From: the human T2T-CHM13v2.0 reference genome, Homo sapiens | Direction: 5' to 3' (one strand) | Assembly (NCBI RefSeq): GCF_009914755.1 | Contig: NC_060937.1 | Length of the DNA: 64,000 nucleotides | Shown here: positions 86 to 29,933 of the stretch, piece after piece | Layout of the letters: each line of letters begins with the position of its first letter | Position numbering within the stretch: the first letter of the stretch is position 1 | The notes under the pieces: model-generated | Seen by the model: the letters and a program-made list of their open reading frames with translations, nothing else | The model's database searches: none | What the model was told of the DNA's origin: nothing | Program-made: the position numbers and the translations under genes

Positions 86-211
86 TTCTGTTTTAAGTTC
101 TTTGAGAAATCACCACACTACTTTTCACAGTGGCCGAACTAATTTACACTCTTCTGTTTTAAGTTCTTTGAGAAATCACCACACCGCTTTTCGCCGAACT
201 AATTTACACTC
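86..211. repeat. Local tandem duplication (66 bp + 60 bp) inside L1
   Basis: ttctgttttaagttctttgagaaatcaccacac...gccgaactaatttacactc at 86-151 and 152-211; second copy lacks 6 bp. Confidence 0.9.
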
Positions 212-613
212 TTACCAGCAGTGTATAAGCATTTCCTTTTCTCTGTAACCTTGCCAGAATTTGTTATTTTTTGACTTTTTAATAGTAGCCATTCTGATTG
301 GCATGTGATGGTATCTCATTGTGGTTTTGATTTGCATTTCTCTAATGATCAATAATTTTGAGCTTTTTTTCATATGCTTGTTGGCCACAAATATGTCTTC
401 TTTTGAAAAGCGTCTCTTCATGGTCTTTGCCCACTTTTTAAGGGGGCCGTTTATTTTTGCTTGTAAATTTGTTTAAGTTCCTTATAGATTCTGGATATTA
501 AACCTTTGTCAGATGCATAGTTTGCAAATATTTTCCCTCACTCTGTAGGTTTTCTGTTCACTCTGTATATAGTTTCTTTTGCTGTACAGAAGCTCTTTTG
601 TTTGTTTAATTAG

Positions 614-1131
<518 letters not shown>

Positions 1132-4100
1132 TGATTTTTATATGATGGGTAAGGTAGAGGCCCAGGCTTGATCTTCTGCATATGGCTAGCCATGTATCCC
1201 AGCACCATTTATTGAATAGTGAGTCCTTTCCTCATTGCTTGTTTTTGTCAGGTTTGTCAAAGATCAGATGGTTGTAGATGTGCAGACTTATTTCTGGGTT
1301 CGCTATTCTGTTCCATTGGTCTATGTGTCTGTTTTTATACCAATACCATGTTGTTTGGGTTACTGTAGCCCTGTAGTGTAATTTGAAGTCAGACAATGTG
1401 ATGCTTCTAGCTTTGTTCTTTTGCTTAAGATTGCCTTGTCTATTTGGGCTCCTTTTAGGTTCCATAAAAATTTTAAAATAGTTTTTTTTATAATTTTGTG
1501 AAGAATGTCATTAGTAGTTTGATAGGAATAACACTGAATCTGTATATTGCTTTTGGCAGTATGGCCATTTTAATAATGTTAATTTTTCCTATCCATGAGC
1601 ATGGAATGTTTTTCTATTTATTTGTGTCATCTCTGATTTATTTGACTAGTGTTTTCCAATTCTCATAAAAATCTTTCTCCTCCCTGGTTAGCTGTATTCC
1701 TAGGGATTTTATTCTTTTTGTGGGAATCATGAATGGGATTGTGTTCCTGATTTGGCTCTCAGCTTGTATGTTTTTGGTATATTGAAGTGTTACTAATTTT
1801 TGCATATTGATTTTCTATCTTAAAACTGCTGAAGTTTTTTATCAGCTTTAGGAGCATTTGGGCTGAGACTATGGGGTTTTCTAGATATATAATTATGTCA
1901 CCTGTGAACTGGGATAATATGACTTCCTCTCTACTTATTTGGATGTCTTTTATTTCTTTGTCTTGCCTGATTGTTCTGGCCAGGACTTCCAATACTGTGT
2001 TGAATAGGAGTGGTAAGAGAGGGCTTTCTTGCTTGTTACAGGCAACTAATCAATCAGCACATTTAACCTTTCAGCTACAGTTGACAATAAATAATATATT
2101 CTAAATTTTTAAAATTATTTATCTATATGTTTTTCTTTAAATAATCCAAAGTTTCTATAAAGTAGTATGAGTATTTAAATATATAACACATTAATTAGTT
2201 TTATGTTATTTAAAGGATAAAACCATTTCAAGAAGGACTATTCTTAGATAGTCCATCTATAACTACTACAAAATACTTCATAAGACCTTATTTTAAAAGG
2301 GTGTGAATGTGAATATCCTGATAAGCTTATCTATTTTTATGCTTTTCAGAACAGACTTATGGTTTGTCAAAATTCTAATGCTAATGCATGACAGGGAGAA
2401 TTATTAGTCCTCAAAAGCTCAAGACCCCTCGAATAAAATATAAAAAGGTTGAGAAAATAATAAGGAAGGATTTTTGTCTAATGTCTTTTAACACACTCCT
2501 CTCCAACCATTACAAGGGCTATTCAAAATATTTACTCAAAGCCTATTTGTAGCTTTTCACTGTATATTCCCACCCATAAATACATCAAATATATTAATTT
2601 TGAACTAAAATAATAGCATTATTAATAATGTAACTTTAAATCATTTAAATGAAGCAAATTTTGATCTATAAAGACATTTGATATTTATTGCTCATATTAT
2701 ATTTTTTCCACCTTTCTTCTCTCCCATCCCAATTTCCCTACCCCAAAAATGGCAAATGGCACTGAGGTGTGATTAGGCACTAAAAAAAATCAATAATAGC
2801 AAAAACCCCACACATACTTTTACACTTTTCATATTGATTTCAAATAATCACAGAGATCAAGTTATCAAACAGCAAGAAAATATAATCAAAACCTTCAACC
2901 AACCATGGCCAAAATAACCAATTACTAAAAAATGATGGAAAAATGTATGTATTATGAGATACAAAAGTTTGTTTATATCAAAATGAATAAATAAAATCCA
3001 GTGGGCAAGCCGAAACACAAGTAGGTAGAAAATATGTGCTTAAAGCAAAATGACAAGCTGTAATAGTGCCCATAATTTTCTTTTTTTATGTAACTTAATG
3101 AAAAAGTTATGATTTCGCATATTCACAGAAATAATGCTGTATCTTAGTTTGACAGTGTAACTGGTTTCACAGCCACCTCCCCACCCCTTTGGGAGTTAAT
3201 GGGAAATTTATTCTTCTACATCCTCTCCCTACCTCTTACCCAAGTATTCTGAAAGCATACTTTTTTGACCCTTTTTTTTTCATTGATTCTTAGTTTGAAT
3301 TTAATAATCAAAGACTTAATTTGAATTTGAGTTGAATTTTATTTTTAAAAAGTTTTTCTTTGCCTCGATTATTAGTTTGAGTTTATGCAAATAAGTAGAA
3401 AACCTACTGACGTAAAGAAATTTTGATTCTTGTATCTCTTGAATATGCAAACTAGCTTTTTAATGCACTAGTCAAAACACTAGATACATTTAGAAGAATA
3501 TTTGGATGTAAGATGTTAAACCAGGAACAATATAGTTCAACATTTTGATCTTAGTCCTCTTTTGATGTCATTATTTCATAATTTAACACTTTAGCTATAT
3601 TCACACTGCATTTTGATATACTGTCAGATGTATCAAAATCCAATGAAATATACTTGTATGTATTGTATTTCAAAATACTTACATTTACAACTATTTGGTT
3701 GCATTACATACATTTTTAAAACCTACTCAATTGAACTTACAATATTTGTTTTTGACTCTTTCAGAGCAGTTCAAAATTTGCCACGATTTTCTCTTGGTCA
3801 GAGGGAGCAAGTTATAATTGGTCTTATATTAATTAAACCAGATCAGGACATTATTAGCCTCAACAAAAACAATCAAATTGGGTTCTTTCAGTAGAATCTT
3901 TTCCAACTAATATTTCAAATTCTTAACTAATTCTTCCTGCTCAGTCAATTTATACCTAAAGAGTCTATTTGAGACTTTTTGTTCTTCCTTTTATGTTTGT
4001 CACTACTTAAAAAAAAATCAGAGGCTTAATTTAGATAATTTTATATATATGTATATACATATGTATTTACTTGGAATATTTAAAATATATTAACTGAGGT

Positions 4101-6165: not shown

Positions 6166-6589
6166 ATATTTAGTAAGCACCTGCATGACTTATTTAAATT
6201 TTATTACAACTCTTCATCATTTATTGAAAATTTGAACCTCAGCTTTCCAAGACCACATAGTGACTAGTAGAACTAAGATTAAGATTTATATTTGTCTCAT
6301 CCTAATACCTATGCTGCTTTTACTATGCTATACTCCACACGTGTATTCATGTGCCTTACATAGTCCCAAATACTTCCTTTGCAAATAAGTACGAATTTAT
6401 TCTCAGACCTCACCCATAATGGCTTTACCTTAAGAAACTATTGAAACTTACTGGAAGCCACTAACTATACCAGGACTCTCCTTAGAATCGAACCATTCCA
6501 GAGCCCTGCTTTTGGTTTGCTTTCAGCTCCTACTTACAAAAATCTCAGTAACTCTCATCCTAAAAGCTACATTGTATGTTTCAATATTT

Positions 6590-7056
6590 GAATATTGAAT
6601 GAATATTGAATGAATATTGAATGAATATTCGATATCGAATATTGAATGAATATTCGATATCGAATATTGAATGAATATTCGATATCGAATATTGAATGAA
6701 TATTCGATATCGAATATTGAATGAATATTCGATATCGAATATTGAATGAATATTCGATATCGAATATTGAATGAATATTCGATATCGAATATTGAATGAA
6801 TATTCGATATCGAATATTGAATGAATATTCGATATCGAATATTGAATGAATATTCGATATCGAATATTGAATGAATATTCGATATCGAATATTGAATGAA
6901 TATTCGATATCGAATATTGAATGAATATTCGATATCGAATATTGAATGAATATTCGATATCGAATATTGAATGAATATTCGATATCGAATATTGAATGAA
7001 TATTCGATATCGAATATTGAATGAATATTCGATATCGAATATTGAATGAATATTGA
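6590..7056. repeat. Minisatellite: 3 x 11-bp GAATATTGAAT, then 17 perfect 25-bp units (AATATTCGATATCGAATATT-GAATG)
   Basis: GATATC recurs every 25 bp from 6631 to 7031; 20 of the 25 bp form a perfect palindrome. Confidence 0.98.
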
Positions 7057-7919
7057 AACATTCCACTCTCTTTAACTTTTTGAAATAGTTTCGGTAGAAT
7101 TGATATTAGCTCTTCTTTAAATGTTTTGATAGAATTCAGCAATAAAGACATCAAGTGCAGTGTTTTACTTTGATGGGAGATTGTTTGTTATTGTTTTAAT
7201 CTTGTTGCCTGTTGGTGGTCTATTAAAGTTTTCTATTTCTTTATTATTCAATCTTGGTAAGTTGTATGTGTCCAGAAGTTTATCCCTTTCTTCTAGGTTT
7301 TCTAATTTGTTGACATATAGTTGTATTTGTAGTGGTTTGTTATAATCTTTTGTATTTCTGTTATATCAGTTGTAATGTTTCCTTTTCATCTCTGATTTTA
7401 TTTGAGTTTTCTTTGTTTCTTAGTTAATCTTGCTAAAGGTTTGCTGATTTTGTTTATCTTCAAAAAACCAGCTCTTTGATATATTAATTTTTTGTGTGTT
7501 TTTTAAAAGTCTCTACTAGGTTTATTTCTGCTCTGATTTTGATTACATATTTCTTTCACTTATTTAAGGTTTAGATTGTTCTTGTTTTGCTAGTTTCTTG
7601 AGGTATGTCACTAGGTAGTTTATTTGAGATCTTTCTACTTTTCTGATGTAGGCATTTATTGTTATAAATTTCCCTCTCAGATCTGCTTTTGCTGAATCCC
7701 ATAGATTTTGGTATGTTCTATTTCCACTTTCATATGTCATAAGAAAATTTTCAATTTCTTTTTGATTTTTTCATTGATCCATTGGTCGTTTATGAGCACA
7801 TTCTTTACTTTCCATGTATTTTTAGTTTTTAAATTTCCTCTTGTTATGGATTTCTAGTTTTATTCCATTTTTGCCAGAAAAGATGCTTGATATAATTTCA
7901 GTTTTTAAAAATTTATGCT

Positions 7920-9098
<1,179 letters not shown>

Positions 9099-12000
9099 AC
9101 TTGTTTTGTAACCTAATATATAGTATATCATGGAGAATGTATCAGCAGCTGTTGGGTGAAATGTTCTGTAAATGACTGTTAGGTTCATTTGGACTACAGC
9201 AGAGTTTAACTGATGTTTATTTGTTAATTTTCTGTCTGGATGCTCTGTTCATTGCTGAAAGTAAGTTACTCAAGTTCCCTATTATTATTGTACTGCAGTA
9301 GATCTCTTTGTTTAGGTCTGTTAATATTTGCTGTATGTATTTACATGTTTCAGTACTGGGTATACATATATATATATAATTGTTATATTCTCCTGCTCGT
9401 ATTGACCCCTTTGTCATTATGTAATGGCCTTCTTTGTCTTTTTAATTACTTTTTACTTAAAGTCTATTTGGTCTGATATAAATATAGCTACTTTTGTTAT
9501 CTTTCCTTTTTTAATTGCATGCAATATATCTTTCCTTCTGTTCACTTTCAGTCTGTCTTTATAGATGTAGTGATTTCTTGTAGGCAGCACATAGTTGGGT
9601 CTTTAAAAAATACATTGAGTCATTCTATGTCTCTTAATTAGATATTTTAGTCCTTTTCCACTCAAGGTTATGACTAATAGGTGACAACTTACTACTGCCA
9701 TTTTGTTGCTTGTTTCCTAGTTGTTTTGTAACTCTTGTCTTTTTTTTTTTTTTAATCTTTCTTACTGTCTTCCTTTGTGGTCAACTATTTTTCTTCTGTG
9801 GTATGTATTAATTTAATGCATTTTCATTTTAGGGCATCTGTTGTAGATTTTTGCTTTGTGATTACCGTGAGGCTTACCAAAACATCTTGTAGTTATAACA
9901 AGTTATTTTAAATTGATGACAATTTAACTTTGATTGTAAAAAGAATAAACAAGCAAACAAACAAAAGCTAAGAAACTCCAAACCTTAACTCTATTTAGAC
10001 TCTTTAATGTCTAAATTTACATGTTTTTATATTACCTATGTCTTAACAAATTGTTGTAGTTATTGTTTTCAATAGTTTTATCTTTTAGTCTTTATACTAA
10101 AGATATGAGTGGTTTATAAACCACAATTGCAATGTTAGAATACTATAAATTTTTCTGTATATTTCCTTTATCAGGGTGTTTTAGACCTTCAGATGTTTTC
10201 TTATTGTGCATTATCATCCTTTTTTTCAGATTGAAGAATTCTCTTTAGCATTTCTTGTAAGACAAGTCTGGTGTGATGAATTTCTTCAACTTTTATCTGT
10301 GAATGTGTTTATCTCTGTATTATGTTTGAAGTATATCTCTGCTGGGTACAGTATTATCAGATGGCAGTTTTATTTCCTTCATTACTTTAAATATGTCATC
10401 CTACTCCCTCCTAGCCTCTAAAGTTTTCACTAAAAAGCCTACTGCCAGATGTATCAGAGTGCCTTTAAATGTTATTTGCTTCTTTTCTCTTGCTGTATTT
10501 AGGATTATCTCTTTGTCTTTAACCTTTGAGAATTTGATTATTGTATGCTTGGAGTAATCTTACTGGGTTCAATCTACTTGATGACTTTCTGATCTTTAAG
10601 CTTGCTGTACCAGATATTTATATCTTTCTCAAGGTTTGGAATGTTTTTCATTATTATTGACCTGAAAACATTCCTACTGCTTTATCTTTCTCTGTTCCCT
10701 CTTGGAGACCAGTGACTTTCACATTTGCTCTTTTGATTCTATCCCATGGAGAATTCTTTGCTACTTTTCATTCTTCTTTTTTATTAAATTTTCTCTTCTG
10801 ACCATGTATTTTCAAATAGCCTGTCTTTGGGCCCACTTATCCTTTCTTTTGCTTAATTCTGCTGTTGTGACTTTTTAATGCATTTTCACTTTTTTCCACT
10901 GTACTTTATAGTTTCAAAATTTGTTTGATTGTCCATTATTTTAATCTCTGTTAAATTTCTCTAGTAAATATTTGAGTTGCTTCTCTGTTCTCTTAAAATT
11001 TGTTGAGTTTTCTCAAAACAGCTGTTTTGAATTCCTTTTCTGTAAGGTCATACATTTTCATATTTTCAGGTAAGTCACTGGTATCATATTGAGTTCACTT
11101 GGTGAGATTATATTTTCCTGAACGTTCTAGATGCTTGTGGATGTATGTCGATGTCTAGATATTGAAAAATTAGGCATTTCTTCTAATTTTTGCAGTCTGG
11201 CCTTGTTTGTATCTGCCCCTCTTCTGAGGGCCTTGTAGAAATTTAAAGGAGAGTGACTACTAAATTCCCCAAGCCTGTGGTCACTGCATACATTTTAACA
11301 CTAGAGAGCACCCTAAATCCTGGTTCACTGCAAATACCTTTCAGATTCCTAGGTCTTCACTCCTAGTGGATTTGGAGAAGATCAGGGAGAGTTTTCTGAG
11401 TTTCCAAGCAAAGTTCCACATTCACTTCCCTCTCCTTCCTACAAACATAAAAAGTCTTTGTGCTGCATTGCCTGGAGTTGGGGGGAAGAGTAATGCAAGC
11501 ATCCTTATGTTTACTGCAGCTGGCACCATGCTGTGTTGCACTTGAAGTCTTCCCACACCAGCATCACACCAGGGCTCACCCAAGGCCCATATCTGCTACT
11601 ACCTGACTGCCGTTGACATTTATTCAGGACCCAAGGCCACTTTAGTCAGCTTGTGGCAAAGCCAGTCAGGACTGGGTTCATCCTACCAAGGTAGCAGATT
11701 CCCTTCTGGCCCAGGGTGATTCTAGAAGTTCTGTCCATGGGCACCAGCCTGGAATCAGAAGACACATGATGCCATGTTTTACCTTGGCTGGGCCTATACT
11801 GGGTTCCAAGGCAAAGTCCCATGCAAACTTTTCTCTCCGTCTCCCAAACGGGTGGATTTTCTCTCCATACTGCACTGCTTGGAGTTTGTGGATGGATCAT
11901 ATAAGCAATGTGCGATAGTACATTCTCTTCGATGTTCCTTTTATTGTTATTATGTCAAAATCAAATACTGTGATCTCTCTCCTGATTTCTTTACTCTTGT

Positions 12001-22921: not shown

Positions 22922-23674
22922 TGAAAGGTGACAACGTGTTAGCAGCCCTGGCTCGCTCTTGGCGCTTCCTACGCCTTAACATCCACTCTGGCTGCGGTCC
23001 AGGAGCCCTTCAGCCCGCCGCTGCACCATGTGGGCCCCTCTCTGGGGCTGGCCAAGGCCAGAGCCGGCTCCCTCTGTTCCTGGGGAGGTGTGGAGGGAGA
23101 GGTGCAGGCGGGAGCCAGGGCTGCATGTGGTGCTCGCGGGCCAACACAGGTTCCCGGTGGGTGCAGGCTCCACGAGCCCCACTCTCAGTGCGTCCTGCCG
23201 GTGCCTGCTGGGCTAGATCAGGGAATGAGCTTGCTCTGGGCTGCCAGAGTGCCCGGGCTAGGTGCAGAAAAGTCCTGCAGTGAGTGACAGTGAGAGGTGA
23301 AGCCAGCTGGGCTTCTGGAACAGGTAGGGACTTGGAGAACTTTTGTGTCTAGCTAAAAAATTGTAAATGCACCAATCAGCGCTCTGTGTCTAGCTAATGG
23401 AGTGGGGACTTGGAGAACTTTTGTGTCTAGGTAAAGGATTGTAAATGCACCAATCAGCACACTCTATCTAGCTAAAGGTTTGTAAACGCACCAATCAGCA
23501 CTCTGTGTCTAGCTAATCAGGTGGGGGCATGGAGAACTTTTGTGACTAGCTAAAGGACTGAAAACGCACCAATGAGCACTCTGTGTTTAGCTAAAGGTTT
23601 GTAAATGCACCAATCAGCTCTCTGTAAAATGGAACAATCAGCAGGATGCGGGTGGGGCCAGATAAGGGTGAATA
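22922..23674 (+). promoter_or_regulatory. 5' LTR12 U3 with CCAAT enhancer repeats, truncated at the AATAAAA TATA-like box
   Basis: tgaaaggtgacaacgtg start; repeated tagctaaagg.ttgtaaa.gcaccaatcagc units; ends at gggccagataaggg(t)gaata, where the 3' LTR continues aaagcaggcc. Confidence 0.9.
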
Positions 23675-23824: not shown

Positions 23825-24715
23825 GTTTACGATATTGGGAGTAATATCATCTCCCCCTCTGGAAATTATGAACTATTTCACAGACGAGTGTACACCCTCC
23901 GTGTACAGAGGGTGTACACCCGTCTGTATTGGGAGTAATATCATCCTCTTCCTCCCTGAATATTCAGAACAGTATCACAGGAGTGTTTCTACTCCCTGCG
24001 ATATTGGGTGTCATATCCTCCTCTCCCACGTGGAAATTAGAAACAATATCAGTGGGGGCGTGTACACCGTCTGTGATATTTAAAGTAATATCATCCTCTT
24101 CCCTCCAGGATCATGGGAACAATATCCCTGGGGTGTGTACACTTTCTGCGATATATGTAGTAATATCACCCCCTCTGCCTTGGAATATTATTAAGGACCA
24201 TCTCACACGGGGATGTACACTTCCTGCGATATTGGGAGTAATATCAACCTCTCCGCCTCTGAATATTAGGAACAATATCACAGGGTGGGTGTACACCTCC
24301 TGCTCTATTATGGGGAGTAATACCTATCATGGGGAGTAATATCATCCTCTCCCTTTCAGGATATTAATAACAATATCACAGGGTGGGTGGACACAGCCTG
24401 CGATACTGGAATTATTATCATCCTCTCCCCCTCAGGATACTAGGAACAATATCACAGAAGAGGTGTACACTCCCTGCGGTATTGGGAGTAATATCATACA
24501 CTTCTTCCGTGAATATTAGGAGCAATATCACCGGGTGGCTGTACATTCATTGCTATGTTGGGAGTCATGTCATACTCTACCCCCTGGATATTAGGATCAG
24601 TGTCACAGGGTGAGTGTACACCTACTGTGATATTAAAACTAATATCATGCTCACCATCCCTGGATAATAGAAACTATCACAGGTAGGTGTACATCCCCTG
24701 CGGTATTAGGAATAA
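23825..24715 (+). repeat. ~75-bp satellite array (SATR1/SATR2-like), about 12 units, forward
   Basis: Unit GATATTgggagtAATATCatcctctccc..gGATATTaggaacAATATCacagggggtgtacaccccctgc. Confidence 0.88.
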
Positions 24716-25100
24716 TAATATTATTAATTATTAAACAGTCTTAATATTATTAATTATTAAACATCAGTCTTAATATCAATGGTAATATTAATTCATAATA
24801 TACGTTATTAATCATTAATGATTATTTTAAATATATGATTATGCATGATTAAATTATTGCTATTGATGTCATTTTTAATATTAGTTATTAATCGTAATAT
24901 TATAGTTTTATTACCAAATACTTATGACTGATTTAATCAACATTAATTATATCATTATTTCATTATTAATAGTGATATTGCTATTATTAATAGTAATCAT
25001 TAATATTTTTAATCCGTATTAACTTTTACTATCTCTATTGTAATTATTAATATCGATGATTACTATTAATTGTTATATTTATTAATATTAATAATATAAC
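24716..25100. repeat. Very AT-rich low-complexity core between the inverted satellite arms
   Basis: Runs of attatt/taat/aatatt with few G or C. Confidence 0.9.
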
Positions 25101-26095
25101 TGTTCCCGATATCCGTGGGGGAGAGGATATTACTCCCAATATCGCAGAAAGTGTACAGCCCTCTATGATGTTACTCCTAATAGCCAGGGCGTAGAGGATG
25201 ACATTATTGAAAATATCGCAGTGGATGTACATCCGTTCAGTCATCTTGTTCCTAGTATCCTGGGTGGGAGTGGATGATATGACTCCCAATATCGAAGAGG
25301 GCATAGACCTCCCCCGTGATACTGTCCCTAACATCCAAAGGTGGAGAGGATGATATTTCTTCCAGTTTCGCAGGGGTTGTACACCACTCCTGTGATATTG
25401 ATCCTAATATCCAGGGGGCGAGAGGATGATCTTAGTCTCACTATTGCAGGAGGTGTACACTCCCTAGGGATATTGTTCCTAATATCCAGGGACAGAGAGG
25501 ATGATATCACTCCCAATATAGCAGGGAATGGACACCCCTTCTGTGACATTGTTCCTAATAGCCAGCAGGGGAGAGGAAGATATTACCCCCAATATCACAG
25601 GGGGTATGCACCCCCTTGTGATATTGTTCCTTATATCCTGGGAGGGAGAGGATGATATTAGTGGAAATATCCCAGGGGCTGTACACACCTACTGTGATAT
25701 TGTTCCAAATATCCTGACGGGGGAAAATGATATTACTCACAATATCGCGGGGGGTATATATCCTCCTGTGATATTGTTTCTTATATTCAGGGGGAGAGGA
25801 TGATATTACTCGAAATATGACAGTGGCTTTACACCCCATCTGTGATATTGCTCCTAATTTCCAGCAGCTAAAGTAGGATGTTCCTCCCAATAGAGCAGTG
25901 GGTGGACACTTGCCCTGTGATATTTCCCCGACTATTCAGGGAAACCCAGGATGACATGACCGCAAATCCCACAAAAAGTGTACACCCATTGTGTGATATG
26001 GTTCCTAATATGCGGAGGTGCAGAGGATGATATTAGTTTTCATATCACAGGCTGCGTACACACACCCTGTGAAATTGTTCCTAAGAGCAGGAAAA
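25101..26095 (-). repeat. ~75-bp satellite array, about 13 units, reverse orientation
   Basis: gagaggatGATATTactcccAATATCgcaggggg.gtacacccc.tgtGATATTgttcctAATATCcagg is the reverse complement of the left-arm unit. Confidence 0.88.
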
Positions 26096-26982: not shown

Positions 26983-27565
26983 CAGCGCAGAGCCATACAA
27001 CTAATACCCCTACTTATAGGGTTAGGAATGGCTACTGCTACAGGAACCGGAATAGCCAGTTTATCTACTTCATTATCCTGCTACCACACACTCTCAAAGG
27101 ATTTCTCAGACAGTCTGCAAGAAATGAAGAAATCTATCCTTACTGAAGAAATCTATCCTTACTCTGCAGTCTCAAATAGACTCTTTAGAAGCAGTGACTC
27201 TCCAAAACCGCCGAGGCCTAGACCTCCTCACTGTTGAGAAAGGAGGATTCTGCACCTTCTTAGGGGAAGAGTGTTGTTTTTACACTAACCAGTCAGGGAT
27301 AGTACGAGATGCTACACGGCATTTACAGGAAAAGGCTTCTGAAATCAGACAATGCCTTTCAAACTCTTATACCAACCTCTGGAGTCGGGCAACATGGCTT
27401 CTCCCCTTTCTACGTCCCATAGCAGCCATCTTGCTGTTACTCACCTTTGGACCCTGTATTTTCAACCTTCTTGTCAAATTTGTTTCCTCTAGAGTCCAGG
27501 CCATCAAGCTACAGATGGTCTTACAAATGGAACCCCAAATTAGCTCAACTAATAACTTCTACTGA
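26983..27565 (+). pseudogene. env: ERV9 env transmembrane subunit, frameshifted
   Basis: RRAIQLIPLLIGLGMATATGTGIA (cleavage site/fusion peptide), immunosuppressive domain LQNRRGLDLLT, CX6CC (CTFLGEECC), TM helix; 19-bp duplication frameshift at 27125-27162. Confidence 0.93.
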
Positions 27566-27733: not shown

Positions 27734-28760
27734 TGAGAGGTGACAACGTGCTGGCAGCCCCCGCTTGCTCTTGGTGCCTCCTCAGCCTTGGCATCTGCTC
27801 TGGCCATGCTCAAGGAGCCCTTCAGCCTGCCACTACGCCATGGGGGCCACTCTCTGGGGCTGGCTGAGGCTGGAGCTGGCTCCCTCTGCTCATGGGGAGG
27901 TGTGGAGAGAGAGGTGTGGGCAGGAGCCTGGGCTGTGCATGGCCTTCACGGGCCAGTGCTGGTTCCTGGTGGGTGTGGTCTCTGCCAGCCCCACACTCAG
28001 TGCAGCCAGCCAGCGCCTGCTGGGCTGGATTGGGGGATGAGCTCCCTCTGGGCTGCCTGAGTGCCTGGGCTAGGTGCCACAAAGTCCTGCAGCAAGTGCC
28101 AGCGAGAGGTGAAGCTAGCTGGGCTTCTGGGATGGGTGGGGACTTGGAGAACTTTTGTGTCTTGCTAAAGGATTGTAAATGCACCAATCAGCACTCTGTG
28201 TTTAGCTAAAGGTTTATAAACGCACCAATCAGCACTCTGTCAAAACGGACCAATCAGCTCTCTGTAAAATGCACCAATCAGGTGTGTGTAAAATGCACAA
28301 CAGCAGGATGTGGGTGGGGCCAGATAAGGGAATAAAAGCAGGCCACCTGAGCTAGCAGTGGCAACCCGCTTGGGTCCGCTTCCACGCTGTGAAGCTTTGT
28401 TCTTTCACTCTTTGCAATAAATCTTGGTGCTGCTCACTCTTTGGGTCCGTGCCACCTTTATGAGCTGTAACACTCACCACGAAGGTCTGCAGCTTCACTT
28501 CTGAGGCCAGCGAGACCAAGAACCCAGTGGAAGGAATGAACAACTAAGATGCGTAACACTCACTGCAAAGGTCTGTAGCTTCACTCCTGAAGTCAGCGAG
28601 ACCACGAACCCACCAGAAGGAAGAATCTCTGGACACATCTGAACATCTGAAGGAAAAAACTCCGGACACACCATCTTTAAGAACTGTAATACTCACTGGG
28701 AGGGTCTGTGGCTTCATTCTTAAAGTCAGAGAGACCAAGAACCCACCAATTCCGGAAACA
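27734..28760 (+). promoter_or_regulatory. Complete 3' LTR12
   Basis: Follows polypurine tract ttagaggggcgat; starts tgagaggtgac; CCAAT repeats, gataagggaataaaagc, polyA gcaataaatc, U5 repeats; ends aattccggaaaca. Confidence 0.95.
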
Positions 28761-29569
28761 CTATTTCATGGTCTGTTATAATATGGAATGATATGCAAAG
28801 TTAATTATTTCAGTTTATACATGAACAAAGTAAAACCTTAAAGTTTTCTTTGATGTTCCACAGGCTTTTACTCTTTCCTAGACCCTTGGTCACCCATATT
28901 CCTCAGAAAGTTGTGCAGCCATTTTGTGTTCTCTTATGCACCGCTCACCACTGAAGTGTCCAATGTAGCGTCAGTTTACCCTTTTAGGTAACATCCATGT
29001 TCTACTTGTTATATCAGTACTCTGCCTTCAAAATGGAATTCCTCCGTTTGACCCATTTCTCAACAGAAGGTTCTTTTCTGGGCTAGGTCAAATCCATTAA
29101 GCTGAAAAACGTATCCATGCTAATGATCAGTCATAGGTTAATTGCTCACCCCATTTGAAAGTATATGTTCATTATAACAGGCATTTCTAGGCATTATCTT
29201 AATCTGTGGTTTATTGAAGAAATTTCAGATACCATAATAGATGACATATAGTGAAGTGCATAGATGATTAAGATTTTCTAAGGACATTCCAAGTGAGAGG
29301 TAAAATAAAGAACAGCAAAATAGAATGGATTCCAACACCCTGCTTCAAAACTCAGAGATATAAAAAGGGTTCATAGGCATACCACTTGGGAAATTGTTGA
29401 TAAAATCCCCAAAACATTAAGCTGATGAGAGATATGGTTAGATGGTTTTAGAAGTCTTCTATCTACATAAATGTGAAGTCAGTTTCCTTGGAAGCCACTT
29501 CAGTAACTGATATGGTTTGGTTGTATCTCCACCCAAATCTCATCTTGAATTGGAAGCCACTTCAGTAAC

Positions 29570-29933
29570 TGATATGGTTTGGTTGTATCTCCACCCAAAT
29601 CTCATCTTGAATTGTAGCTCTCATAATTCCCATGTGTTGTGGGAGGGACTCGGTGGGAGGTAATCGAATCATGGGGACGGGTATTTCTTTTTCTTGTAAT
29701 AGTGAATAAGTCTCATGAGATCTGATGGTTTTATAAAGGGGAGTTCCCCTGCACATGCTCTCTTACCTGCCACCTTATAAGTAAGACGTGGCTTTGCTCC
29801 TCTTTCACCTTCTGCCATGACAGTGAGGCCTCCCCAGCCATGTGGAATTCTAAGTCAATTAAACCTCCTTTCCTTTATAAATTACTCAGCCTTGAGTATG
29901 TCTTTATTAGCAGTGTGAGAACAGACTAATACA
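29570..29933 (+). mobile_element. THE1-family MaLR solo LTR; its first 42 bp also duplicated at 29508-29549
   Basis: tgatatggtttgg..ccacccaaatctcatcttgaattgtag ... cagactaataca. Confidence 0.92.

What the first reader, a model, noticed from the sequence alone, without database searches (positions are those of the whole stretch)
6576..7061. Perfect palindromic 25-bp VNTR bounded by 13-bp inverted repeats at an L1 breakpoint
Seen: 17 identical copies of the 20-bp palindrome AATATTCGATATCGAATATT separated by GAATG, with all 34 CpGs intact in a CpG-poor region. Three 11-bp precursors (GAATATTGAAT) come first; the 25-mer is that 11-mer plus GAATATTCGATATC. The array is enclosed by ATGTTTCAATATT (6576-6588) and its exact reverse complement AATATTGAAACAT (7049-7061), and the right end is where an old L1 is truncated. 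Inference: fold-back synthesis at a break, followed by very recent expansion. It is likely length-polymorphic, prone to hairpins or cruciforms, and adds a new methylatable cluster.
Basis: partly seen in the sequence, partly recalled or inferred. Interest (0 to 1): 0.7.

Follow-up and report, generated by a model that had tools for sequence, protein, structure and literature searches.

The report
Palindromic minisatellite born from broken L1
This is a real, already catalogued human repeat on chromosome 13 that varies in length between people and whose palindromic 25-base unit overlaps the broken end of an old L1 retrotransposon; it likely grew from that end by copying slips and is likely without function.

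Summary
The palindrome occurs nowhere else in CHM13.

One correction: the old antisense L1 starts at 7044, so the GAATG spacer, the last 11-mer and the right arm lie inside it. The array was likely seeded by this L1 stub.

The locus is already in two VNTR catalogues. At GRCh38 chr13:54,296,983-54,297,034 the reference is 51 bp, against 348.7 ± 63.2 bp in 16 long-read genomes, with low Vst and no eQTL. CHM13 has 473 bp. So it is length-polymorphic and not an assembly artefact. Modelling suggests GRCh38 carries one palindrome.

Likely mechanism: template switches at the self-complementary hexamer AATATT, then hairpin-assisted slippage. The arms are identical, five departures from the L1 majority included, so they are younger than the L1. 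That they formed at the break itself is not shown. Ape state and methylation were not testable. Similar palindromic AT-rich arrays exist elsewhere. Verdict: a tidy but ordinary, likely neutral VNTR.

The parts
6576..6588 (.). Left arm of the 13-bp inverted repeat; inverted copy of L1 stub bases 7049-7061
   Evidence: Exact reverse complement, no outward extension; carries the five stub-specific departures from the L1 majority
6580..6596 (.). Degenerate first hairpin; differs from the expanded core by two CpG-type transitions and one extra T
   Evidence: Sequence comparison; 9-bp arms; predicted -4.2 kcal/mol for 6576-6600
6590..6622 (+). Three 11-bp units (A); a rotation of the first 11 bases of the L1 stub
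   Evidence: Parse; 23-mer unique to this locus; the catalogue's most informative k-mer lies here, at 6595 and 6606
6624..7043 (.). 17 perfect 20-bp palindromes at period 25 with GAATG spacers; 34 CpGs
7044..7064 (-). Terminal stub of the old L1; holds GAATG, the 11-mer rotation and the right arm; likely seed of the array
   Evidence: 16 of 21 columns match the majority of 27 of 29 paralogs; match collapses left of about 7040-7043
7049..7061 (.). Right arm of the 13-bp inverted repeat, inside the L1
7044..11547 (-). Old antisense L1 lacking its 3' half; interrupted by an Alu (7920-8219) and a sense L1 3' piece (8240-9098)
   Evidence: 40 best paralogs at 72-78%; homology traced to 11547; L1 ORF1 domain PF02994 on the minus strand, E 5e-5; Alu and ORF2 labels are recalled

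Best explanation
This is a single-locus, length-polymorphic human minisatellite whose spacer and 11-bp sub-unit match the terminal bases of a 3'-truncated old L1, and which likely arose from that end by short template switches at the self-complementary hexamer AATATT, then likely expanded by hairpin-assisted slippage, probably with no function. Steps: (1, shown) L1 homology ends at 7044 and its first 11 bases are the array's sub-unit. (2, inferred) Slippage duplicated the 11-mer, placing two AATATT hexamers 5 nt apart. (3, inferred) One strand folded back at those hexamers and copied 7 more bases, giving the left arm. (4, inferred) A short duplication, one T-to-C change and a 7-nt inverted copy made the 20-bp palindrome with two symmetric CpGs. 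(5, inferred from two catalogue rows) This one-palindrome state is the GRCh38 allele. (6, shown as variation, inferred as mechanism) The 25-mer amplified to roughly 12-13 units on average and 17 in CHM13; two neighbouring units are predicted to form a 20-bp stem that would stabilise slipped strands. Rough odds: real and polymorphic 0.97; L1 stub as seed 0.9; templated origin of the arms 0.75; arms made at the truncating break 0.35; neutral 0.9.
For: L1 boundary and seed. 61 of 74 junction bases parse as direct or inverted copies of the 21-bp stub, against 5-54 for the same bases of 27 paralogs and 2 of 3,127 random flank 21-mers reaching 61 (partly circular, as the stub holds the last unit). 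Chance of the outer 7-bp arms: 1.6e-4 to 1e-2. Removing one 7-nt inverted copy from the core leaves a sequence resembling the left end. Polymorphism: 51 bp in GRCh38, 348.7 ± 63.2 bp in 16 genomes, 473 bp in CHM13. 1 of 342 in-register models, one A plus one palindrome, fits both catalogue rows. Folding: -17.7 kcal/mol for two units, both strands alike. Neutrality: eQTL False, Vst 0.008-0.011; no CpG-island, TFBS, DNase or gene overlap for the GRCh38 interval; no gene within about 15 kb in the hub's annotation. Precedent: palindromic template-switch insertions in humans (PMC3638132); 5-34-bp fold-back inversions in yeast (PMC11724301).
Against: No ape or individual human allele was seen, so the order and direction of steps 2-5 are a parsimony reading; the CpGs could be ancestral and decayed in the leftmost copy. 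The GRCh38 sequence is modelled, not read; 19 calls among 5,340 cut-and-rejoin models, mostly out of register, also give a 19/36 repeat call. The excess of differences in the right arm is marginal (5 of 13 against 16.5%, P = 0.05; 51 of 762 windows do as well). The negative functional data are weak: the DNase and TFBS overlap was made on a reference lacking about 420 bp of the array, and the nearest protein-coding genes are far away, so an eQTL test has little to find. Lengths differ among populations slightly but significantly (ANOVA P 5.5e-6).
Confidence: 0.75

Rival explanations
1. The inverted arm was made by fold-back synthesis during repair of the double-strand break that removed the L1's 3' half, in the manner of alternative end joining; the array grew later from that scar.
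For: The arm sits at the junction between unique DNA and the L1 stub. The L1 lacks its 3' half, which normal insertion does not produce (established knowledge); the missing part is not adjacent, and the L1 ending at 2041 is a separate, younger copy. Size and geometry fit yeast fold-back inversions.
Against: Identical arms after L1-scale drift have about 1% chance, so the event cannot date from the insertion unless the hairpin was repeatedly corrected. Nothing here dates the deletion. A replication template switch needs no break.
Confidence: 0.3
2. The expansion is fixed or nearly fixed in humans and the short GRCh38 allele is a contraction in a bacterial clone; the expansion would then be older than human allele diversity rather than very recent. 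This concerns timing and is compatible with the best explanation.
For: GRCh38 is 4.7 SD below the assembly mean. The SD allows at most 1-2 such alleles among about 32 haplotypes. Palindromic arrays are deleted in E. coli (recalled).
Against: The modelled short allele also has one leading 11-mer instead of three and is an in-register precursor, as an ancestral allele would be. VNTRseek genotyped something at this locus in short reads (non-reference calls in 21 of 2,504), though it cannot see long alleles.
Confidence: 0.4
3. The flanking inverted repeat is a coincidence: the array is pure slippage from AT-rich sequence and the outer 7-bp match is chance.
For: Only 7 bp are independent; 1% chance with slack; tens of thousands of VNTRs exist.
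Against: The match is in exact register with the shared hexamer (1.6e-4), and the unit itself is a perfect palindrome, which slippage alone does not make.
Confidence: 0.1
4. The array is a functional, length-tunable regulatory element (methylation seed, nucleosome or factor-binding array) acting on MIR1297 or a distant enhancer.
For: 34 new CpGs in a CpG-poor region; an annotated enhancer about 10 kb and MIR1297 about 15 kb away (hub annotation).
Against: eQTL False in both tables, low Vst; no annotated overlap; all 34 Rfam matches are far below gathering score and the array ones are generic hairpins.
Confidence: 0.05
5. It is a miniature inverted-repeat transposon or a piece of satellite II/III inserted at the L1 end.
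For: 13-bp terminal inverted repeats; GAATG is a satellite III pentamer rotation (recalled); the 12-bp core has 4 other matches, on C15.
Against: No target-site duplication of 2-10 bp. No close-spaced copy of the arm pair in the genome. The right arm and GAATG are L1 sequence. The 1 of 4 C15 matches fetched is an isolated chance core in diverged satellite.
Confidence: 0.02

Closest known systems
This locus in VNTR catalogues: Lu et al. 2021 (PMC8275641), chr13:54296983-54297034; VNTRseek TRid 182437625 (PMC8096271)
   Same: Same place, matching k-mer, length variation recorded.
   Different: The rows give coordinates and lengths only; the palindromic unit, L1 seed and arms are not described in what I saw.
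Human-expanded AT-rich VNTRs with hairpin units, such as the 32-bp MYRIP and 31-bp RBPMS arrays (PMC8327921, Table S1)
   Same: AT-rich units, near-pure arrays; MYRIP has 35 CpGs in 35.8 copies at 78% AT.
   Different: This unit is more self-complementary (88% against 61-73% in four comparison arrays; 20-bp perfect palindrome against 8-14 bp). It is not in that table, which excludes repeats within repetitive elements.
FRA16B and FRA10B AT-rich minisatellite fragile sites (PMC9714581)
   Same: AT-rich minisatellite with 25-42-bp units; 14 copies of the FRA16B unit stall forks in vitro.
   Different: 77% AT against 91% for FRA10B; 0.35-0.47 kb against more than 5 kb for fragility; no fragile site is mapped here in what I read.
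Templated fold-back inversions and FoSTeS/MMBIR micro-insertions (PMC11724301, PMC3638132)
   Same: Short inverted copy of adjacent sequence; 6-bp palindromic microhomology.
   Different: Here the product was later amplified as a tandem array; break versus replication origin is unresolved.
Palindromic AT-rich repeats (PATRR11, PATRR22; recalled)
   Same: Whole array is an 88% inverted repeat with 221-bp arms.
   Different: Perfect stems stop at 20 bp, broken every 25 bp; serial small hairpins are predicted to be as stable as, or more stable than, one long fold-back.

Membership tests
Human minisatellite VNTR | Head-to-tail units of 7 bp or more | tested here: met
   Period 25, 18.7 copies, 99%
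Human minisatellite VNTR | Length varies among human genomes | tested here: met
   51 bp, 348.7 ± 63.2 bp (16 genomes) and 473 bp; published table, not raw alleles
Human minisatellite VNTR | Single locus | tested here: met
   20-mer 17 of 17 matches here; 23-mer 2 of 2 here
Human-specific expanded VNTR | Short or absent in apes | not testable with these tools
   No ape genomes held; not found in the 467-locus table; the 1,584-locus source paper is not held
AT-rich minisatellite fragile site (FRA16B/FRA10B) | Expanded to several kb | tested here: not met
   473 bp in CHM13, mean 349 bp; threshold above 5 kb
AT-rich minisatellite fragile site (FRA16B/FRA10B) | Break induced by BrdU or distamycin A at the locus | not testable with these tools
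   Cytogenetic assay
PATRR | Long near-perfect palindrome with arms of hundreds of bp (recalled) | tested here: not met
   Longest perfect arm 20 bp; 88% over 221 bp
Templated fold-back inversion | Short inverted copy of sequence next to the junction | tested here: met
   13 of 13 bases, 7 independent
Templated fold-back inversion | Formed at a double-strand break | tested here: inconclusive
   At the L1 truncation, but younger than the L1; deletion undated
MITE / non-autonomous DNA transposon | Target-site duplication | tested here: not met
   0 of 9 lengths, 2-10 bp
MITE / non-autonomous DNA transposon | Dispersed copies with the same terminal repeats | tested here: not met
   0 matches for the arm pair within 30 bp; wider spacings were not searched
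Satellite II/III | Tandem GAATG pentamers | tested here: not met
   GAATG occurs singly and aligns to L1

The most novel reading that the evidence does not exclude
The self-complementary hexamer AATATT is a recurrent seed for a class of palindromic minisatellites that grow by alternating inversion and slippage and create symmetric CpG pairs by templated copying. The chr13 array is the extreme case, still shows every stage from L1 stub to expanded array (with the one-unit precursor surviving in humans), and is a pre-mutation allele of an AT-rich fragile site that could reach kilobases in some families, possibly the BrdU-type site FRA13B listed at 13q21.
Probability: 0.08. Interest if true: 0.55.

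Novelty: already known. Interest (0 to 1): 0.22.

Why it matters
As it stands it matters little: an intergenic VNTR with no recorded expression effect. Its use is as a clean teaching and test case. The likely birth stages of a minisatellite are readable in 500 bp, the standard reference is about 300 bp shorter than typical genomes here, and every unit is cut by EcoRV and SspI, which makes hairpin-driven instability easy to assay. If the one-unit allele is real and apes lack the array, it dates a full inversion-then-slippage history to the human lineage. If kilobase alleles exist, it would be a candidate fragile-site sequence.

Tried and rejected
Twin-primed L1 with a target-site duplication at the array: no copy of the left junction downstream; the sense L1 piece at 8240-9098 has its own 12-bp duplication and is a nested insertion. 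L1 split by a 4.5-kb insertion: the L1 ending at 2041 has best paralogs at 80-83% against 72-78% for the host, so it is a separate, younger copy. L1 continuing left of the array: no real match. MITE and satellite origin. Non-coding RNA: 34 Rfam matches, none near gathering score. Dating by purity: too weak. Mutation cluster in the right arm: marginal. Pfam on 12 frames: only L1 ORF1 passed its cut-off; the ORF2 remnant gave none. Print: the unit sequence gave one unrelated Entamoeba paper; GRCh38 coordinates gave only unrelated papers in the 20 of 21 listed. Supplements of PMC13308034 and PMC13263140 had no hit (the latter held only 14,393 characters). Six neighbouring repeats tried as offset controls were absent from the stored VNTRseek file. 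Ape orthologues, per-haplotype alleles and methylation could not be obtained.

Full report
OBSERVATION. The sequence is as described. Seventeen copies of the perfect palindrome AATATTCGATATCGAATATT start at 6624 and every 25 bp to 7024, with GAATG in all 16 gaps. Three 11-mers (A) precede them; with the 14-mer B the array reads AAAB(AB)16 A. 6576-6588 is the exact reverse complement of 7049-7061. There are 34 CpGs (obs/exp 6.2; flanks 0.18 and 0.13). The 20-mer has 17 matches in CHM13, all here; the 12-bp core has 21, 17 here and 4 on C15. Folding beats 100 of 100 shuffles (z = -22.8).

THE L1 END. The DNA to the right is an old antisense L1: the 40 best paralog matches are 72-78% identical, homology runs to at least 11547, and an L1 ORF1 domain lies on the minus strand (PF02994, E 5e-5, 1 passing hit in 12 frames). 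Column by column against 27 of 29 paralogs (two dropped as not aligning at the junction), the match is high from 7044 rightward (16 of 21 columns to 7064) and collapses to the left. So the GAATG spacer, the last 11-mer and the right arm are the terminal bases of the L1, not something placed beside it. The left flank matched only itself, and the L1 does not resume there. The L1 ending at 2041 is a separate, younger copy (best paralogs 80-83%). The element has lost its 3' half; when is unknown.

THE ARMS. Six of the 13 bases are the hexamer AATATT that recurs through the array, so 7 bp are independent: chance 1.6e-4 in fixed register, 199 of 20,000 with slack. Five of the 13 right-arm positions depart from the L1 majority, and the left arm mirrors all five. 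Identical arms after drift at the L1's own divergence (16.5%) have about 1% chance. The copy was therefore made, or corrected, long after the insertion. There is no target-site duplication (0 of 9 lengths) and no close-spaced second copy of the pair in the genome, so this is not a MITE. Of 74 junction bases, 61 parse as direct or inverted copies of the 21-bp stub; only the left flank and a 7-base core are new (partly circular). The core can be made by one 7-nt inverted copy, whose removal leaves a sequence resembling the left end. The left end (6580-6592, TTCAATATTTGAA) differs from the core (6628-6639, TTCGATATCGAA) by two CpG-type transitions and one T. Whether CpGs were gained in the core or lost at the left end cannot be told without apes.

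POLYMORPHISM AND PRIOR RECORDS. I placed the locus on GRCh38 from a recalled MIR1297 coordinate and then found it in two tables. Lu et al. 2021 (PMC8275641; seen: passages, two table rows, README) list chr13:54296983-54297034: reference 51 bp, assemblies 348.7 ± 63.2 bp in 16 genomes, Vst 0.0077 and 0.0113, ANOVA P 5.5e-6, eQTL False. Their most informative k-mer matches window 6595 and 6606, which ties the row to this array without the recalled coordinate. The row turned up only in those two statistics files among the 11 searched; one of the 11 is the table on unstable loci. VNTRseek (PMC8096271; seen: passages and one row of a file cut when stored) lists chr13:54296985-54297020, pattern 19, array 36 bp, non-reference calls in 21 of 2,504, and no CpG-island, TFBS, DNase or gene overlap. 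CHM13 measures 473 bp on the same interval, 2.0 SD above the mean; GRCh38 is 4.7 SD below. Of 342 in-register allele models, 3 give the 19/36 repeat call and 1, a single A plus a single palindrome, also fits the end coordinate; out-of-register models can also give that call (19 calls among 5,340 models), so the GRCh38 length is firm and its sequence inferred. The SD allows at most 1-2 such short alleles among about 32 haplotypes. The array is thus real, typically about 12-13 units, and variable; the short reference allele is either a rare precursor or a cloning contraction. Purity alone bounds the expansion only to about 7 Myr (recalled rates, no homogenisation).

STRUCTURE. One unit folds at -4.5 kcal/mol, two units form a 20-bp stem with a 5-nt loop at -17.7 (plus) and -17.5 (minus). 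The whole array is an 88% inverted repeat, but one long fold-back (-146.9 plus, -126.1 minus) is predicted to be no better than serial hairpins (-149.7, -146.3). In the one-unit model the outer arms pair with probability 0.9-0.98. These are single-strand predictions; cruciform extrusion in chromatin is untested.

MECHANISM. Most likely: slippage duplicated the L1 stub's first 11 bases; two AATATT hexamers 5 nt apart let a strand fold back and copy 7 bases, giving the left arm; a small duplication, a T-to-C change and a 7-nt inverted copy made the palindrome; hairpin-stabilised slippage then amplified the 25-mer. Shown: the seed identity, the arms, the variation in length. Inferred: order, direction and enzymes. 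Precedent: palindromic template-switch insertions in human indels (PMC3638132, passages) and 5-34-bp fold-back inversions at yeast breaks (PMC11724301, abstract and one section). Whether a break was involved is open (about 0.3).

COMPARISON. It meets the tests for a single-locus minisatellite VNTR. It resembles other AT-rich hairpin arrays. One motif search alone gave 138 overlapping matches per strand; the listed part showed two arrays, on C2 and C3. The C3 array has the unit of the MYRIP human-specific expansion of PMC8327921 (seen: abstract, section 4, Table S1 searches, file 1 not searched). Among five hand-picked comparison loci (four arrays, one satellite stretch) this one is the most self-complementary (88% against 61-73% and 44%). 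A 100%-pure 20-bp array on C10 is built on the same AATATT seed without CpGs. This is a small, chosen sample, not a genome-wide rank. It works like the unexpanded state of FRA16B/FRA10B-type repeats but fails their size test (PMC9714581, passages); FRA13B is listed at 13q21 there, and this locus is, by recall, in adjacent 13q14.3. It is not a PATRR, MITE, satellite insert or known RNA.

NOVELTY AND SCORE. The locus and its length variation are already catalogued. I found no description of its palindromic unit or L1 origin in searches by sequence, coordinates and topic (listings only). Two key catalogues (Sulovari 2019, Audano 2019) were not held, bioRxiv supplements are closed, and some stored tables were cut, so a record could have been missed. 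No evidence of function; the negative data are weak because the reference lacks most of the array. Interest 0.22. The bolder reading, a recurrent AATATT-seeded class with fragile-site potential, is not excluded (probability 0.08, interest 0.55).

Noticed in passing
L050:48-154 (G000:C10:50100847-50100953): 100%-pure 20-bp array, 5.3 copies, with a 14-bp palindrome on the same AATATT seed followed by GAATG, but no CpG: an apparently independent parallel.
   Followed up: partly
L051:72-301 (G000:C4:155383421 onward): 37-bp, 92% AT array in which a block of three CpG-bearing units precedes CA-bearing units: a CpG variant spread as a block.
   Followed up: partly
L052 (G000:C3:40.098 Mb) and L053 (G000:C2:36.188 Mb): 32-bp and 28-bp AT-rich arrays with a TATCGATA core and 35 and 23 CpGs; the first matches the MYRIP human-specific VNTR unit.
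   Followed up: partly
window 7920-9110: Two nested insertions in the host L1: an Alu (7920-8219) and a sense L1 3' piece with poly(A), flanked by a 12-bp direct repeat at 8227-8238 and 9099-9110 (family labels recalled).
   Followed up: partly
window 86-2041: Separate, younger antisense L1 whose 5' end falls about 450 L1 bases from the host's 3' truncation; it has a 66-bp tandem duplication at 86-213.
   Followed up: yes
window 6590-6622: The k-mer that best explains length in the Lu table (r2 0.727) lies in the 11-mer tract, not the palindrome, so the 11-mer count probably varies along with total length.
   Followed up: no
window 24013-25864: Degenerate 75-76-bp tandem arrays, about 70% match, up to 10 copies.
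   Followed up: no
window 23327-23625 and 28156-28312: Related 24-, 41-, 78- and 119-bp repeats resembling LTR12-type internal repeats (label recalled).
   Followed up: no
window 29488-29614 and 27125-27163: Perfect two-copy duplications of 62 bp and 19 bp, likely recent.
   Followed up: no
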